Below are positions 8,436 through 55,182 of a stretch of DNA of 64,000 nucleotides, one piece after another (within the stretch, counting starts at the first letter, position 1; every line of letters begins with the position of its first letter). The notes below the pieces were generated by a model, which worked only from the letters and a program-made list of their open reading frames with translations, had not been told where the DNA came from and ran no database searches. The stretch is from Octopus vulgaris (lineage: Eukaryota), in contig OX597830.1 in NCBI GenBank assembly GCA_951406725.2, positions 34,472,001 to 34,536,000 on the forward strand, in the 5' to 3' direction. The position numbers and the translations under genes were made by a program.

Positions 8436-9146
8436 TTATTGCTTATTTAGCTTGGGTTCGAATTTATCAATAAAATTCTTTTCTCTGATTTTCCTCTCGA
8501 TTTCACTTGGGCTGTGTAATTTGTAGAATGGAAATATTATATATATTTTCCGACCACATCTTGCTAGGTGGTTACTCAAAGGTATCTGACGGACCTCTGG
8601 GTCTCTAATCTGTTGCCGGTGTACACGTGAGCGTTCTAATAGTGCGTTTCCCGTCTGACCTACATATATTTCTTCACAATTTGGGCATTTGATGCAGTAA
8701 ATTAAATTTCTGCTTTTGCAGTTCATATTCGCGTTTGTGAATATTTTCCCGGTTTTTGTGTTTATATATTGACCGGTATGTATGAATTGGCATGTGCCAC
8801 ATCGGCTATCATTGCATTTAGATACCGTGAATGTTTGGTCTTTGTTGCTGAGGTCAAATTTTGCCTTTGTTAGTAATGTTTTCAAGTTTTTAGGCTGTCT
8901 TTTACTAAGCACCATAGCTCGATCTTTGATTATGTCTTTTAATTCATTACTTTGGGCAATGATTGGTAGGTTTGCTTTGGCAATGTTGAAGATATTCTGG
9001 TGACATGGGTTGTGTGTCACTATGAATGGTATGACTTGTTCTTGTTTTCCTCTTCCTTGGGTTGTCCTAAGTTGTTGTATAGGTATTTTTATAGCCCGCT
9101 GTATGCCATTTTCTATAAGTAGAGATGGGTATTTTTGTTTGAGCAA
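8436..9146 (-). CDS. Partial PLE ORF: C-terminal GIY-YIG endonuclease (frame open further to ~9215)
   Basis: Motifs CNDSRCGTC, NMNCKSRNLIYCIKCPNC-EEIYVGQTG..ER..H and RE..I..FEPKLN. The 5' end is truncated, so it is not a complete gene. Confidence 0.85.
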   Translation of the reverse strand: MLKQKYPSLLIENGIQRAIKIPIQQLRTTQGRGKQEQVIPFIVTHNPCHQNIFNIAKANLPIIAQSNELKDIIKDRAMVLSKRQPKNLKTLLTKAKFDLSNKDQTFTVSKCNDSRCGTCQFIHTGQYINTKTGKIFTNANMNCKSRNLIYCIKCPNCEEIYVGQTGNALLERSRVHRQQIRDPEVRQIPLSNHLARCGRKIYIIFPFYKLHSPSEIERKIREKNFIDKFEPKLNKQ

Positions 9147-9372
9147 AAATTCTCTTAGTTCTATTAGGTGTTTGTTCCTGATATTTGCATCTTCTACAAT
9201 AGTACAAATTCTTCTGGCTTATATGTATATATAAGTATATATATATAAATTAGAAACAAAACCCACCATTTATCAATTCAACAATGAAAAATTACATATT
9301 ATAGAGAGATTAAATATAAGATAAAAAATATAACAATGATTACATAATATGCAAAATAGTAAATAAATAAAA

Positions 9373-12239: not shown

Positions 12240-14030
12240 CTATCCGTTTTCTTTAGGGGACCAAAAACGTAACAGAAATTTAGTCACATGTGGGCATGAT
12301 CCGAAAAGTTCTGTCCTTGTATTTAGACATGTGGTAGGGTCTAAGCTGCTTTTCCAGATAAGCCATCTCTCCATGTCGCATAAACCGCACCTTCCGCTGC
12401 CGTTAGTATAGGGCTTACATCTGGCCAAAATCTTCCATTGTATGTTATAATCGACACCTTTATCTCTTAAAGACCAAATATGATTGGATAATTGTGTCGC
12501 TTTTCTTTTGTTCCAGTGCCTAAAGCTCAAAGTGTGGTTATTGAACCTGGTCTTGAAATTACCCTCTGTCAGGCCCACGTATTTCTTCGTCAAAACGGTG
12601 TCTTTAGTGGTTATAGAGTTTACGGTAGCCTCATATATGATGGTCTTGGACATGCAAGCTCCATTTAGCGGGCACAATTCTTTATTCCTGCATGAACAGC
12701 TGTTTTCTTCTTGTGTTTTTTGTATGTTATGATTGATTATGTTTTTAAAATTGGTAGTTGAACTAAAACTAATTTTTAAATTGTGTCTATTGAAGAGTTT
12801 CCTATAAGCATGGTTAACTGGAAAATGTCTATCTATCAGTGCTAGGAAATATTTACCTATATTGAAGGCCACCTCGGGTGAGTAAGGGGGCGTAAACCAG
12901 ATGACCTTCCTATTTCTATTATTCCTTTTCCTTATTGTTGGGCTGGTGATAGGTGTATATTTTATTTTTTCGCTAAAACCACTATCTTTTAAAGCTTTAT
13001 TATAAACTGGGGCAACGCTATTGAAGATGTCCTCATTAGATGAGAGGCTAGAAATCCTCTTACTAATATTTTTAACTAAATTTTTGAATACTATAGGGGG
13101 ATGGCATGAACCTACATTAATATAACTTAGTCTATCATTGGGCTTCCTATAAGGCTTATAAATATTATTATTAAGATCTAAGGAAACGTCTAAGAAATTG
13201 ACAACCGTCAGGTTAGTGTCTATAGTTATACTAAGTCCGAAGTGTTTCATTAACTGGATAATATCCTTCCTAAAACGATCTTGTGCTGGTCCATTTGTAT
13301 TAGCTGTTAAGGCGAGGGCATCATCTTTGTAGATGGCGAAATGTACGTTAGGGAATGTCTTACTGAAGGTATCTAGGAGAAAGAGTCCAATTAGATCACA
13401 GATGCCTGCCCCATCATATGAACCCATGCTCACATCGAAAGCGCCCTCCGTGTCGGTGTTTTTTACCCACTTTGCATTCTCACTGAAAAGTAATGTCTTT
13501 CTAGCATGGAAGATTATATCCTTATCATTGGTACTAATTTCTATGAAGTCACTAGCGAAGATTAGGGCTTTATCTAGCAGTTCTTTAGAGATAGAGGCAT
13601 AAAAATCAACAATATCGAATTGTGTAAACCTCGCTTTTTTCTTATTCTTAATAGCTTTAAACCAGTCTACGACTTCTATACTATTGGACCATTGCACTAG
13701 CCTAGTATCGCTCTTAATTTTCGTATTTATTTTATCTAAAATTTCTTTGCTAATAATCCCTAGTTCTGACTTGGCTGGGTTGATAAGCCTACATTTAGGA
13801 TTGGAAAGGAAGTTTTCTTTGTGGTCTTTAATAGTAATAAAGGCCTCTTTTTGGGGGAGGGTTTCTATTTTTTTATCTAATTTAAGTTTAGCGGCGATGA
13901 CGCTAGCTTCTTTATTAATTTCGTTATATGTCTGTGCCCTAGCTTTAGTATAATTATTAATGATGCTGTTGTGTAAGAGTTGTGTGTATTTGCTGTTATC
14001 TACCAGGTATAAGTTCTTGGTTTTATCCGA
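12240..14030 (-). CDS. PLE reverse transcriptase + GIY-YIG endonuclease (Naiad-like); frame open upstream of the called start, frameshift at ~14030-14045
   Basis: By manual translation upstream: [17 protein letters not shown] and [12 protein letters not shown]. Within the called ORF: FDIVDFY, MGSYDGA, YKDD, FLDV, CSCR..CPL.G.C, IIYEA..YVGLTE..FK.R..NH, CGLC..E and CPH. Confidence 0.9.
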
Positions 14031-14208
14031 AAAAGTGCTTTTTTCTTGGAGCTTTTTATATGATCAATATCTTTCTTCAATTTATGTTGGAAATTGTTAA
14101 AAGACTTACGAAACTTTATTTTGCTCATGATCTTCAGCAGGTCCGCTTGGAAGATTTCACTGCCCCCAGAAACCCTTTCTTTCTTTTGTTATCTTACCGT
14201 TTTATCAA

Positions 14209-19481: not shown

Positions 19482-20136
19482 TATAAAATCACTCAGACAC
19501 ACATATACCTACAAGCAAACATGAATAATTGACATAAAACAAAAAATAACACACAAACATACATTAAAAAAATCAAACCATAAATATATATAATTGTAAT
19601 AATAACAGTAATGATAATGTTTTTCATACATGTACCTTTCAGTGACTATCTTAAAACTTTTTTCCTTTCTCATATTCTATTTGTTTTGCTTTTCAACTAT
19701 TTCAATATTCACATCCTACCCCCATACATCCACCTTCCTAACTAGTTTAATATTTTTTTTTTTTTTTGTTGTCTGGGGAGAGTCATTGTCTTTTAGTGCC
19801 TTATTATTTAACACACCGCTTAAGTTTCCACTCATTTACTTATTTATAAATTTACCAAAATTTTTGTGGCATCTTGCAACCTTTTCAATAGTCGTTGATT
19901 CTCCAAAGACGAAATTACTTTTTTTAAAATTCCATTATCTTTATCATAAATCTATGTGATTGGGGATTTGCCATTGGTCAATGACACATTGTGATGTCAT
20001 TGTTGATAGCAGTCAAATCTTTGTTGCATTTGCTTGTCACCCAGTAAACTTGCCTCATTTGGGGCTCAGGTAATTAAAATGTAGGAAGACTCCCTGCTGC
20101 CCTTTCAGGAAAAATATCAGCCAATTGAAAATACAT

Positions 20137-48900: not shown

Positions 48901-49471
48901 GTATGAAAAATTTTAATTCCTGTGTTTTGTAGAAGTATAAACAATTTATTTCCAATAACAGCAAAATCTTATATTGACCCCCTACTTCTCGTATGTCATA
49001 TACATATACAGGCGTTAGCAACACATAGACACACACACAGACACTTTCACACCCACATATGTAAACAGATGGTGAGCAAGGCAATGATAGGACCTTCACA
49101 CAGTTGTATCGCCTGCTAGCAATAACAACCCAATTTCTCTCCACAGAGGTCATATTGGAAGTTCTAATACTAGATAAATAAAAATGTTACAATAGGCAAA
49201 ATAATTTTTAACATCGGTTTATCTATCTATCTATTTACGTATCTATCTATCTATTTATCTACGTATCTATGTATCTTTCTATTTATCTACGTATCTATCT
49301 ATCTATCTACCTATTTGTCTGTCTGTCTTATAAGTAGGTAAGAATATAATACTTTCCCTATACTTGATATGTGCAGACATCATCTCGATAGTTTTAAACA
49401 TACTTGTGGCTTGTTCTGGTTTTTTTTAAACTTTTAATTCTGTATTTGACATATACTTGATTTTACATGAT

Positions 49472-49513
<42 letters not shown>

Positions 49514-50039
49514 TAATTCATATTTATAATGTATAATTTTAAAATTTTAATTCTTAATATTACAAAGTATAATTTTTATTCTTAATTTTTTTTTAAATTT
49601 TTTATTCTTAGTTTCTAATTCTTAATTTTTAATCTTTAATACTTAATTGCATTGCTTATTTTTAAAGGGATGTAAAATTAGATATATATATTTTGAAATA
49701 GAACCTAAAGAGATGTTGGAATAATTGTAAAGCTGATGATTGCATATATGTATTTATATATGTATATATATAGGTATACAGTTGTGTATATGTTTATATA
49801 TTGCAATCTTCCAATACTGAAACACGTGTAGTTCCTTCATATTTAATAAATTTAAGTATTAACTAAAGTATAATATAATTAATGAAGTATATTATATAGC
49901 TGGTAATTTAGGTTATATCCTTTAAGTGTTATTTCATGATGTGCAAACTGACACCATGAGTTTACTGTCAGATATACTCATTGGGTTATTTTTGCATTAT
50001 CTGAAACAGAATACCCGCATAATGCTTAATCCCAAAATA

Positions 50040-50610
50040 TTGCAAGAACCACATCTGCTCTTTATGTAGAGTGGTTCTCTGTCTCAATGTCATACTTGTC
50101 TGTCCTATATAGTGATATCCACAACCTGACAAGGTTATTACATAAATTAGATTCTCAGAGGCACAAGTGAAGTTAGTTTTAATTGTGAACCTCTCTCCTT
50201 GTTTGAAAAGGAAATCTGAGCCTTCAAGTAGGTTGGGGCATGTTCCACAGTTTGGGCATCCACATTTTTTAACTGTTGGTTTTTTGGTTGTTGTGTAAAG
50301 CTTTTTATTTGTTAGAAGTCTCTTTTCCGATTTCTGTTGCTTTCTGCATTTGATGAATTGATGTGCTTTCAGGATGTTGTTCATTTTGGAGTCTCTAGTT
50401 AGTAAAGGAAGATTTTGCACAACAATGTGGTATGCCTCATTGTTTCTAGGTTTGTGTGTTGATATATACAGTGGTGTTTTGAGATGAGGTGCAGCGTTAT
50501 GTTTTGTTATCCTTAGCGTTTTATGTCTAATTTCTTGGCACACTTAATTCCATCATCTATAAGTGAAGGTGGATATTGTCTTTCAGTTAGTGTTGTTCTG
50601 AAGTCTTTAT
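50040..50610 (-). pseudogene. Degenerate Neptune-type PLE GIY-YIG fragment
   Basis: CGCPNCGTC..NFTCASENLIYVITLSGCG..YIGQTS..LRQR..LH, homologous in layout to 8436-9146. The C-terminus is truncated. Confidence 0.8.
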
Positions 50611-51204
50611 AAATGGTAAAAGGTCATTAATAATAATGGAAATTATTTCAATGAGTAAATTTTATTGAAAGCTCAATCATTTATACCACTTTGTGCATAT
50701 TAAAAAAAACACTCAGAACTTTCCAGACAACCTAATATATATTTTCATACATTGTCCTTTGATGTACAAACATTAGGCAATCACACCCAGGTGATCCAAA
50801 CAAGATTGACCAAACTCCAACTTGTGTCTAGTTAGCACTGCCCCTGGTGGCATTCACTGCTCATCCCAGAGCTCATCTTTCCTGATATGCAATTGTTTCC
50901 ATGCAGCCTCTGTTGTCTCTATCATAAGCTTGATGGCCTTTTGTTCACTGGCTTCTGTGATGAAACACATGTTGTAAACTCTGCAGATGGACTGGCTGGC
51001 AAACCCTCTGCATCTACCTCACTGCTTCTGTGTAGCGCCAACAGCCCAGGTATATATTTCTTCTCTTACTCTCATTTGCCTTCTCAGAAACGGTTTTAAC
51101 AGAAACACCAATTTAGATGCTTCTCTGCATATAACATGGTAAACATGCATGTGTGTGTGTGTGTATTAATATATTGTATAACGATGAATATATATACATA
51201 GGCA

Positions 51205-51420
51205 TATTCTTTTCTACTATAGATACAAGGCCTGGAATTTGGGGGAAGGGAGATAGTTGATTACATCAACCCCAGTGCTTTAGTGGTACTCAATTTATTA
51301 ATCCCAAAAGGATGAAAGGCAAAGTCGACTTTGGTGGAATTTGAACTCAGGACATAAAGATGGATGAAATACTGCTAAGCATTTTGCCCGGCGTGCCGAC
51401 AATTCTGTCAGCTCATTGTC
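51205..51420 (-). mobile_element. SINE family A
   Basis: Match to family A. Confidence 0.8.
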
Positions 51421-51519
51421 TTTAAATATATATATACATATTATGTGTATAAACTTATACATATTGCAAAAATATATATGAAAATTTGTATGCATATATA
51501 TATATATATATATATACAT

Positions 51520-51863
51520 ACAATTGCAGCGTGGAAGGTATTTGTAAGCCATTTAAGAAACATCCAAAAGTCGTTCGATTCACTTCAACATTTAAGTTTA
51601 ATTTGTCAAAATATTTTCGTCGCTATAAGACCGCGACCTGTTCACTGACAAAAATCTGTGACGCAACACGGATTTTTGTCAGTGAACAGGTAGCGGTCTT
51701 ATAGCGACGGAAATATTTTGACAAATTAAACTTAAATGTTGAAGTGAATCGAACGGCTTTTGGGTGTTTCTTAAATGGCTTACAAACACCTTCCACGCTG
51801 CAATTGTTTTCGTTCCAGCACATGATCTCAGATCAAATCACTTGCTATGCAAGTACATCTCCG

Positions 51864-51866
<3 letters not shown>
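51520..51866. mobile_element. Asymmetric palindrome (141 bp arms 51520-51660 / 51667-51807 plus ~60 bp tail) in (TA)n, with two divergent hammerhead-like motifs
   Basis: Arms differ at only a handful of positions, with a 6-nt loop acgcaa. Confidence 0.85.
51602..51652 (-). ncRNA. Minimal hammerhead ribozyme motif with G3-C8 swapped core
   Basis: Minus strand: uuuguca-GUGAACA-g-gucgc(ggucuuaua)gcgac-GAA-AAUAUU-U-ugacaaa. 7 bp stem I, 5 bp stem II, palindromic stem III. Confidence 0.7.
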
Positions 51867-51911
<45 letters not shown>

Positions 51912-52667
51912 ATAGACTCATATTGTCATTGAATGCTCGAAATAATGAGTAGATAGACGGCCGATATCTGAAGAGTCGTTCTCTGTGTTACTTGTCCTGT
52001 TCTCCATATGTTTCTTTCATTGTTTTGGGATTCAACTCATTTGTTTTCGTACTTCATGTTGTTTACACAGTTGGTGATGTCCTGTATGCATATATATATA
52101 TATATATATATATTGTGTGTGTGTGAGTGCATATTCATGCATGCATACATATGTGTTTGCATATGCGCAAATATATCGACACACAAGTCAGTACAGGTGT
52201 GTATATAGCGTCAGTAAAAAGAAAATGGATGGAAACCCACATTTGGCAGGACACAGTGAGTGGTGCATTGATGGTGAATAGGACTGAGAACAAAAAAAAT
52301 GGAAAGGTGAATGTGGAAAAGATGTCTGTTAATGTCGGGTGATGAGGTAATTCTATTTAATAGTTGTGGTTTTATCATGATGGCGTTGGTTGGTAGTGGT
52401 GGTGGTGGTGAACATTTAAGTGCAAAATTGTCAATATAATTATCTACACTAGTCTGTACAGCAATGTTTTTTCAAGCTTCATTTGTAATATTTGTGTTTT
52501 GAATTTTGTTGTTGTTAGTAGCAGCAGCAGCTGCAGTATTAGTAATGGTGGTGGTTAGGGGTTACAGTGATAGTTGTGATTTTAGTTGTGATATTAGTGC
52601 TATTTGCATTAGTAATATTGGGGGTGATAATACCAGTTGTAGTAGATTTGGTAGTTGTAAGTAGTCC

Positions 52668-52762
<95 letters not shown>

Positions 52763-52769
52763 TATATAC

Positions 52770-52821
<52 letters not shown>

Positions 52822-52846
52822 TTATATATATATGTATATATATATG

Positions 52847-53008
52847 GGTGCAGGAGAGGCTGTGTGGTAAGTAGCTTGCTTACTAACCACATGGTTCCGG
52901 GTTCAGTCCCACTGTGTGACATCTTGGGCAAGTGTCATCTACAAGAGCCTCAGGCCGACCAAAGCCTTGTGAGTGGATTTGATAGACGGAAACTGAAAGA
53001 AGCACGTC

Positions 53009-53102
<94 letters not shown>

Positions 53103-53306
53103 TTGTGTGTCTGTGTTTGTCCTCCCAACTTCACTTGACAACTGATACTGTGTGTTTACGTCCCCATAACTTACTGGTTCAGCAAAAGAGACAGATAGAA
53201 TAAGTACTAGGCTTACAAAGAATAAGTCCTGGGGTCGATTTGCTCGACTAAAGGTGGTGCTCCAGCATGGCCACTGTCAAATGACTGAAACAAGTAACAG
53301 AGTAAA

Positions 53307-53308
<2 letters not shown>
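52847..53308 (+). mobile_element. SINE family B, full length
   Basis: Match to SINE B. Confidence 0.85.
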
Positions 53309-53344
<36 letters not shown>

Positions 53345-55182
53345 GCATACACATATATCTATGTTAGCATATATGTAGGTCATTCTTCAGTTTTATTTCA
53401 AGATTTCTTGTTAATAGAGAAAGAGTTGGTTTCTGAGATCCAAATCCCCTTTATAAGAATTTCAGTAATATCAACAGTGTTTGTGCATGTTTGTGTATAT
53501 GTGTGCAATATTTTGAGTCAGTGCATGTGCAGATTTCTATGTTTTGTGTCATGCATGTGCTCTCATACATATATTTGCTTGATTAGACATGCACATATAT
53601 ACTAAAATGATAACATGCTGGAAAATTATACAGGTTTTTACAGTTCTTATGATGGTTTGAATCTGTAGTCTTTAAATCAGCATGCATACATCTATATGTG
53701 TGTGTGTGTGTGTGTGTAATCTCTCAGTTAATTGGTTGTTTATCTTCATTGAAAGGGGGGAGAATCATCTTGATAGGGGTCAAAATCATTTCTAATTTTT
53801 CATTGCAAAAGGTAGGAACAAAATGCACATAAAGTATTTATTTGATCAAATGTTCTCTTGTTAATTTTTCTTTTAATCTTAAGAGTCCTCAACATTCATA
53901 GACAGCTACTATTTCAGTCTAGTTGGATTTCATCAGTGTAACATGATCGAGAATATAAGATCCATTAAACATTTTATTACATTAAATTAAATTATTCCCT
54001 TTACAGAGGACAAAAAAATTTATTACACTCTGTGGGATTTGAACATGTGTGCTGTAAACTGTAATGCTGAACTAACCACCATGCCAAAATGACACCACAA
54101 CATACATATATCTGTCTTTTTATCTGTCTATCTGTATATATGTATGTGCATATGTATTCCTAAAGATGTATATGTTTATAGTATTCAGTGTATTATGTGA
54201 TGGTATTTTGTATTGCACACAACATATACTTATCATTGTAATTGTATGCTTTGCAGTTGTTGCTAGAATTGCTGTTTTTGTTGTTGTAACCAATAAAAAA
54301 ATGACAAATATAAATATATGTATGTATATATATAAGTATATATGTATGTTTGTATATATAATGTATGTATTTGTGTATGTATATATATATATATATATAT
54401 ATATAATGTATTTGTATTTATATATAGGTATATATATGTATACATATACTTCTCCAAACAAATAGAAAAAGCCAAATTAGGATTTTTCGGTCAGCAAATC
54501 AGTCTTAGAGACAGTATTGATTTTGGTTATAATTAATATATTGGAATTTTTTTCCTACCGATTCCTTCATGCATGTAGAGAGATTGTTATTACTGGCACT
54601 GAGTAAGAAGCTTCAATGTATTTGTGCTTTGTTCCATTTGTACTGATTCTCTAGAAATTGTACATCAGTATACAAGTCTGGTGTACGTTATGACAGAGTG
54701 TGGCATGGTTCAGGGTGCGGTGATATGATAAAGTATATTTTGATAAAATGCTGTAGAGTGCAGTTCAGAACAAGAAGAAAAGCAAAAAAAAATCTATACG
54801 ATAAAATATATACCAGCATTGCTATCATTGCGGCTGTTATCACTGTTGTTTAACCCAAGGTCAAATCTGATTGGTCAGAACTATAATTGAAAATGTTCCA
54901 GCCATGACCACCCAATCTTTTTGTATATTAAAGACTACACTGTCTAATGTGTCCTCTTTTATATAAACCAAGAGGGTGCCCATTGAAAAATCTTTAAGTT
55001 ATAGATAGATATTCTATAGCATTTTGATTACTTGTCTCAAGCCAAGTTTGCTGCTCATCCTTTAATGGTTGATAAAATATAGCATCACTCACGTGCTGGT
55101 ATTGATGGCATCAATTAATACCTTCCACTCACAATTATCTGTCTTGAACCTAAATTATTTGTGGTAAAATTTATTTACGACA

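What the first reader, a model, noticed from the sequence alone, without database searches (positions are those of the whole stretch)
51520..51866. Young 141 bp-arm palindrome with a G3-C8 covariant hammerhead
The core GUGAACA swaps the C3-G8 tertiary Watson-Crick pair to G3-C8 in both arms, a compensatory double change that argues for a selected ribozyme fold. Stems I and II are perfect on the minus copy, and stem III is the self-complementary AAUAUU expected for dimeric cleavage. The plus copy has A13>G and a stem II mismatch. CpGs are largely retained, so the insertion is recent.
Basis: partly seen in the sequence, partly recalled or inferred. Interest (0 to 1): 0.7.

Follow-up and report, generated by a model that had tools for sequence, protein, structure and literature searches.

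The report
Penelope stub pair with flipped-core hammerhead
This palindrome is two head-to-head stubs of the front end of an abundant Penelope-type jumping gene, whose hammerhead-shaped RNA motif has its central base pair flipped (G-C instead of C-G) in thousands of copies while two sister families keep C-G or U-A, so the fold is likely selected, but self-cutting is untested and this copy is likely inert.

Summary
Observation confirmed: 141-nt arms (135/141 complementary), each a type I minimal hammerhead with core GUGAACA (G3, C8); minus copy intact, plus copy has A13>G and a stem II mismatch. The locus is an ordinary head-to-head insertion of two short 5'-leader copies of a Neptune/Nematis-type Penelope-like element (parent: 1025-codon RT+GIY-YIG frame) in a (TA)n tract. 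G3-C8 is the family state (3162 of 3521 core matches in one subfamily group; 98 of 100 listed in another). The two arms are therefore not independent covariation. Real covariation lies between families: sisters carry C3-G8 (98/100) and U3-A8 (80/83). Engineered G3-C8 rescue and natural U3-A8 are in print; my searches found no natural G3-C8 report (one key paper unreadable). Side result: short copies stop at one fixed 5' end, often with an untemplated G, likely a copied cap, and show no peak at the cut site, so stubs likely come from uncut RNA. Cleavage is untested. This scan reported the same family before on other DNA.

The parts
51520..51660 (-). Left arm: PLE leader stub ending at the proximal 3' site (unit positions 7-147), no tail
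51602..51652 (-). Intact type I minimal hammerhead: G3 at 51645, C8 at 51640, extra G at 51638, stem II 51637-51633/51623-51619, AAUAUU 51615-51610; predicted cut after U17 at 51609
51661..51666 (.). Head-to-head junction; ACGCAA is a decayed ATGCAG, the family's fixed 5' end, abutting the partner arm
   Evidence: same junction type in L201, L205, L211
51667..51866 (+). Right arm: PLE leader stub running to the distal 3' site (unit position 206)
51675..51725 (+). Damaged hammerhead copy: G3 51682, C8 51687, C>A 51692, A13>G 51710
51775..51866 (+). First ~30 codons of the parent ORF (ATG directly after TAA), with a private stop at 51823; start codon inferred from parent L111
51808..51866 (+). 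Unpaired ~60-nt PLE tail between the two 3' end sites
51494..51516 (.). (TA)n target tract, left
51867..51899 (.). (TA)n target tract, right

Best explanation
The palindrome is a single, likely inert insertion of two head-to-head stubs of the 5' leader of an abundant Penelope-like retroelement, and that leader carries a family-wide G3-C8 minimal hammerhead that is predicted to cut slowly as a dimer or with protein help. Shown: family, parent ORF, position of the motif just upstream of the ORF start, two 3' end sites about 60 nt apart, a fixed 5' end with an untemplated G, three different Watson-Crick pairs at 3-8 in three related families. Inferred: the element's protein nicks both strands of a (TA)n tract; each nick primes reverse transcription at one of two internal sites of an uncut, capped transcript; both cDNAs run towards the cap and are joined head to head. 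Selection on the fold acts in the few master elements, not in stubs like this one.
For: Family size: 3162 exact G3-C8 22-mers, 121 with another base at 3, 238 with another base at 8; a second loop subfamily has 2272 matches, 98 of 100 listed G3-C8. Parent: L109 1025-aa frame with YVDD RT motif, CX3CXXC linker and GIY-YIG PF01541 E 1.8e-5; L111 shows pLTR - hammerhead - TAA ATG - ORF. Sisters at 53-60% protein identity: family A C3-G8 in 98 of 100 listed of 3351, family B U3-A8 in 80 of 83; all three share the extra G, G10.1-C11.1 and a short or palindromic stem III; on a 6-row alignment 5 of 9 pairs change on both sides. Within the family, variants at >=10% fall in loop II (5 of 9 sites) and avoid stems and core (1 of 42; Fisher p 3e-4). 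Palindromes are routine: 13 of 26 insertions have an inverted partner, 12 of these 13 pair a 143-151 end with a 198-206 end. 5' ends: 14 of 30 reach within 6 nt of the fixed start, 0 of 30 start at the cut site; 36 of 62 short copies have G where the parent has C/T, 21 of 37 after removing junctions the partner arm could template (background G 0.125, p 2e-10); family B shows the same extra G in 4 of 5 short copies whose junction is not an inverted arm. PMC11167929: a PLE protein nicks and extends both strands, starts at two internal sites, uses uncut RNA, and C3G/G8C partly rescues its hammerhead.
Against: No cleavage data. No raw RNA reads were served, only Logan contigs. Stems and core are not significantly more conserved than the rest of the unit as a whole (1/42 against 16/158, p 0.13). 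A non-pairing G3-G8 state is about ninefold above the C>G background (5 of 177, p 2.5e-4; 48 of 100 listed position-8 variants) on several backgrounds, so elements with a broken pair may have been mobile. The leader also holds a start codon, short upstream frames and a 3'-splice-site-like stretch, which could constrain sequence. Covariation rests on only three families. The untemplated G could be terminal-transferase addition rather than a copied cap. Target-site duplication cannot be read in (TA)n.
Confidence: 0.82

Rival explanations
1. The hammerhead fold is a catalytically dead relic kept as a structural or protein-binding element (or translation control) in the leader; the 3-8 pair is kept for folding only.
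For: Stubs likely derive from uncut RNA; no clear peak of ends at the cut site: 1 of about 24 identifiable partner arms among 100 junctions; G3-G8 copies are over-represented; cleavage is dispensable for insertion in vitro; metazoan PLE hammerheads are weak in vitro.
Against: All catalytic positions (U4, G5, A6, G12, A13, A14, U16.1, H17 not G) are fixed in the family; the 3-8 pair is a tertiary pair of the active fold, kept three ways; engineered G3-C8 retains partial activity.
Confidence: 0.25
2. This locus itself is a functional, selected ribozyme or regulatory hairpin.
For: The minus copy is intact and folds; a 141-bp duplex could be an editing or small-RNA substrate (inference).
Against: One of thousands of like insertions; about half are palindromes; plus copy decayed; a transcript folds into a long hairpin that hides the motif; no host coding exon recognised among the window's 48 frames of 130 aa or more (by eye only).
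Confidence: 0.04
3. The fixed 5' end is a 3' splice site, and stubs are copies of spliced RNA truncated at the exon junction.
For: The parent reads CTAAC - pyrimidines - YAG directly before ATGCAG; Penelope has a pLTR intron ending at hammerhead stem I.
Against: Beyond the single G no upstream sequence is shared among short copies (position -4: T26 A15 C15 G6); no splice joint in contigs, though the stretch laid held no donor site.
Confidence: 0.12
4. The palindrome is a MITE or a fold-back assembly artefact.
For: Long inverted arms in a TA tract.
Against: Arms are head-to-head with unequal ends and 6 mismatches; single arms are as common as pairs; the unit is part of an RT-encoding element.
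Confidence: 0.01

Closest known systems
[quoted passage not shown]
   Same: Type I, pLTR position, extra nucleotide between 9 and 10.1, G10.1-C11.1, palindromic 15.2-16.2 and loop 3, thousands of solo copies, opposite-strand pairs; natural U3-A8 variant described in Schistosoma.
   Different: Core is G3-C8, which that text does not report; stem I is 7 bp.
Poseidon PAc of Anolis (Frangieh et al. 2024, PMC11167929; read: main text parts 1-2)
   Same: Hammerhead at the pLTR-ORF junction; two internal RT start sites giving the tail; both strands nicked; AT-rich targets; engineered C3G/G8C partly active; uncut RNA is the template.
   Different: Here G3-C8 is the natural state; the tail is about 60 nt (30-40 reported); the ORF starts about 57 nt after the cut site instead of inside stem II; the protein has a Cys linker.
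Neptune/Nematis clade EN+ PLEs (as described in Craig et al. 2021, PMC8557442; read: passages)
   Same: C-terminal GIY-YIG, CX2-5CXXC linker, inverted 5'-truncated partner copy, tail at one end, (TA)n bias.
   Different: Clade not tested by a tree; most copies here are 150-210-nt leader stubs with a fixed 5' end.
Natural hammerhead core variants (Perreault et al. 2011, PMC3088659; read: passages)
   Same: Natural covariation at 3-8 (U3-A8).
   Different: G3-C8 is not named in the passages found.
Small PLE hammerhead variants that cleave as dimers (Lunse et al. 2017, PMC5785218; not held, seen only as a citation and summary in PMC6765202)
   Same: Short stem III, PLE-linked, dimer cleavage.
   Different: Cannot tell whether it lists G3-C8 variants.

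Membership tests
Hammerhead ribozyme, type I minimal (PLE) | Stems I and II around the core, G10.1-C11.1 | tested here: met
   (minus copy; plus copy has one stem II mismatch)
Hammerhead ribozyme, type I minimal (PLE) | Canonical core letters C3 and G8 | tested here: not met
   G3 and C8; no Rfam hammerhead hit
Hammerhead ribozyme, type I minimal (PLE) | Watson-Crick pair between 3 and 8 | tested here: met
   G-C here, C-G and U-A in sisters
Hammerhead ribozyme, type I minimal (PLE) | U4 G5 A6, A9, G12 A13 A14 A15.1, U16.1, H17 | tested here: met
   95-99% of about 175-180 copies per position; the plus copy lacks A13
Hammerhead ribozyme, type I minimal (PLE) | Extra nucleotide after 9; palindromic stem III | tested here: met
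   extra G, AAUAUU
Hammerhead ribozyme, type I minimal (PLE) | Self-cleavage at H17 | not testable with these tools
   no raw RNA reads; no genomic peak at the site
EN+ Penelope-like element | Single ORF with RT and C-terminal GIY-YIG | tested here: met
   L109: YVDD motif by pattern, PF01541 E 1.8e-5; Pfam gave no RT family hit, and L110 gave no hit at all
EN+ Penelope-like element | pLTR partial tandem, inverted truncated partner, tail at one end | tested here: met
   L111, L109, L112
EN+ Penelope-like element | pLTR intron | tested here: inconclusive
   acceptor-like stretch seen; no donor or spliced joint shown
Neptune/Nematis clade | CX2-5CXXC linker before the endonuclease | tested here: met
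   CQSNCAVC at residue 896
Neptune/Nematis clade | Placement in an RT tree with reference PLEs | not tested
   no reference set fetched
Non-LTR retrozyme | Head-to-tail tandem monomers each with a hammerhead | tested here: not met
   solo or head-to-head copies; definition from 10.64898/2026.07.22.740005 part 1

The most novel reading that the evidence does not exclude
A successful animal Penelope family runs on a natural G3-C8 hammerhead, completing a three-way natural covariation (C-G, U-A, G-C) at the 3-8 tertiary pair within one genome, a class that standard descriptors and Rfam miss; and its thousands of stubs record in DNA the PLE insertion step: twin priming at two internal sites on an uncut, capped RNA copied through to the cap.
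Probability: 0.5. Interest if true: 0.6.

Novelty: new variant of a known kind. Interest (0 to 1): 0.4.

Why it matters
A natural G3-C8 core would widen hammerhead search descriptors and give a natural test of the tertiary pair so far flipped only by mutagenesis. The fixed 5' end with an extra G and the one-short-one-long arm rule give genome-scale support to the in vitro PLE model (two RT start sites, both strands primed, uncut template) and bear on the open question of what PLE hammerheads are for. The locus itself is an ordinary dead copy.

Tried and rejected
Rfam scan 49000-55000: no hammerhead, only microsatellite-driven miRNA noise. The C28 5.2-kb array is a duplication, not the parent. 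The C2:171.24 Mb direct pair is a 3.45-kb duplication of an old copy. RNA search: no RNA holder listed on record; contigs only, so no start, end or strand; the table of other letters was cut (40 of 221 rows shown), so it says nothing firm on 3/8 in other organisms. Cleavage-site footprint: 6 of 374 arms start at positions 55-59 (selected sample, about 2.5 expected, one explained by stem I microhomology), but 0 of 30 in the sample anchored downstream and 1 of about 24 partner arms; not accepted. C3-G8 or U3-A8 revertants inside the family: 0 of 100 listed. G3-G8 as an ancestral intermediate: rejected as unproven, since it sits on young and old backgrounds and is absent from 100 listed copies of the GGATT subfamily. 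My first descriptor needed 5 bp of stem I and missed the sister motifs; they were found by eye. L273's weak inverted partner was dropped after inspection. Literature searches: hammerhead+G3-C8, C3G/G8C/natural variants (67), G3C8 spellings (80), octopus+Penelope+hammerhead (77) found no natural G3-C8 report; Penelope+non-templated G+cap (66) and retrotransposon+extra G+cap (81) found nothing. Lunse 2017 and one Cervera supplement could not be seen and may bear on novelty.

Full report
Observation. The window holds an inverted repeat with 141-nt arms at 51520-51660 and 51667-51807, 6 mismatches and a 6-nt spacer. The right arm continues for about 60 unpaired bases to 51866; both ends abut (TA)n. 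On the minus strand 51602-51652 reads stem I (7 bp) - GUGAACA - G - stem II (5 bp, 9-nt loop) - GAAA - AUAUU - U - stem I, a type I minimal hammerhead with G3 and C8, one extra G before stem II, the palindrome AAUAUU and U17. It folds as drawn (z -2.59); the plus copy, with C>A at 51692 and A13>G at 51710, does not (z -0.42). Rfam does not recognise it.

Family. The window lies in a 2.8-Gb animal genome; its repeats look like those of an octopus, which is recalled and comes from no call. The core 22-mer occurs 3162 times exactly, 121 times with another base at position 3 and 238 times with G3 but another base at 8: 3162 of 3521. A subfamily with a different loop II adds 2272 matches, 98 of the 100 listed G3-C8. 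None of the 100 listed position-3 variants is C3-G8 or U3-A8. In 64 copies anchored upstream of the core, 62 were G3-C8. So the flipped pair is the family state, and the two arms are two copies of it; they also share a T>G at unit position 103.

Parent. Copies with longer 5' extensions (455 matches) lead through about 1 kb of microsatellite-rich pLTR to a GIY-YIG domain. L109 has a 1025-codon open frame with a YVDD motif, a CX3CXXC linker and PF01541 at E 1.8e-5; Pfam gave no RT hit. L111 shows the 5' pLTR, the hammerhead, TAA-ATG and the ORF. The window's unit is thus the last part of the pLTR plus about 30 codons; the start maps to 51775, with a private stop at 51823. The Cys linker and (TA)n bias fit Neptune/Nematis as described in PMC8557442 (passages); I built no tree.

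Covariation. A protein search gave two sister families at 53-60% identity. Family A carries CUGAUGC-G (C3-G8, C9) in 98 of 100 listed of 3351 matches; family B carries UUGAAAA-G (U3-A8) in 80 of 83. All share the extra G and G10.1-C11.1. On a six-row alignment (four rows from this family, so not independent) 5 of 9 named pairs change on both sides and slid controls fall to 7-47% pairing. Inside the family, 206 copies not chosen on the core (sets chosen on the core or on likeness to the window were dropped) show shared variants at 5 of 9 loop II sites but 1 of 42 stem and core sites (p 3e-4); against the rest of the unit the contrast is not significant (p 0.13). Against a strict need for the pair: G3-G8 is 5 of 177 against a 0.31% C>G background, makes 48 of 100 listed position-8 variants, and sits on several backgrounds. 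I cannot explain this.

How the palindrome arises. In 374 arms from all loci held (a selected sample), 135 end at unit positions 142-151 and 205 at 196-206, 206 being the end of the reference. In 30 matches anchored downstream of the motif (26 insertions), 13 have an inverted partner and 12 of these join one short-ended to one long-ended arm, as here (147 and 206). PMC11167929 (main text) shows that a PLE protein nicks and extends both target strands and starts reverse transcription at two internal sites, which makes the tail. I infer twin priming at a (TA)n target and head-to-head joining. The 5' ends cluster at AGATGCAG, 16 nt before stem I: 14 of 30. The parent has C or T before this A; 36 of 62 short copies have G, and 21 of 37 after removing junctions that the partner arm could template (p 2e-10), with no shared sequence further up. 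Family B shows the same G in 4 of 5 short copies whose junction is not an inverted arm. That reverse transcriptases copy a cap as an extra G is recalled; two searches found no paper on it for PLEs. The likely reading is a transcription start at that A and templates that the hammerhead had not cut. No peak at the predicted cut was found (0 of 30; 1 of about 24; a weak 6 of 374).

This copy. The arms lie on opposite strands, so a transcript holds one sense motif, and it folds into one long hairpin. The copy differs from a close real copy at 5 of 141 and 6 of 206 sites: young, but decaying. No RNA evidence was obtainable.

Known and new. Minimal hammerheads in PLE pLTRs, their extra nucleotide, palindromic stem III, dimer model, low activity, opposite-strand pairs and natural U3-A8 are in PMC4209133; U3-A8 also in PMC3088659 (passages). 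Engineered C3G/G8C rescue is in PMC11167929, PMC8495972 (passage) and a G3-C8 variant in PMC3884650 (passages). PMC6155905 and PMC11014351 (term look-ups) gave nothing on it. Four searches found no natural G3-C8 report, but Lunse 2017 was not held. It works like a PLE minimal hammerhead and meets every testable feature except the canonical C3/G8 letters; I file it as a new variant with activity untested. Earlier notes of this scan describe the same family on other DNA; one gave the sister-family lead, which I tested and confirmed.

Verdict. Real feature, ordinary locus, modestly new core variant, and a useful mechanistic footprint. Interest 0.4.

Noticed in passing
G000 family copies, e.g. L155, L225, L233, L237: C8>G (non-pairing G3-G8) is about ninefold above the C>G background, on young and old GGTCT-loop backgrounds, yet absent from 100 listed copies of the GGATT subfamily; unexplained.
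   Followed up: partly
window 19840-19898 (-): Decayed copy of sister family B with the U3-A8 hammerhead core.
   Followed up: partly
L283:482-4417 (+): Sister family A: young, many 1310-1312-codon open frames; hammerhead C3-G8 with C at position 9 family-wide.
   Followed up: partly
window 12240-14063 (-), 8436-9218 (-), 49986-50543 (-): Three fragments of other Penelope-like ORFs (RT and/or GIY-YIG-like, judged by eye), one about 1 kb left of the finding.
   Followed up: no
L110:7400-7422 and window-family parents: Branch-point, pyrimidine tract and YAG directly before the fixed 5' end; may be a true acceptor used in read-through transcripts.
   Followed up: partly
L021, L123, L159, L296, L275:5500-5540: Further hammerhead-like motifs of other repeat families with U3-A8 or C3-G8 cores and palindromic stem III (ACCGGU, ACGCGU, ACGU).
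   Followed up: no
L092, L093, L183, L248: Four small deletions starting at unit positions 57-58, at the predicted cut site; microhomology may explain them.
   Followed up: partly
L026-L029 (C28, 5.2-kb period): Tandem duplication carrying a three-arm arrangement of the stub.
   Followed up: partly
window 51229-51420: SINE-like repeat just left of the insertion (resemblance recalled, not tested).
   Followed up: no
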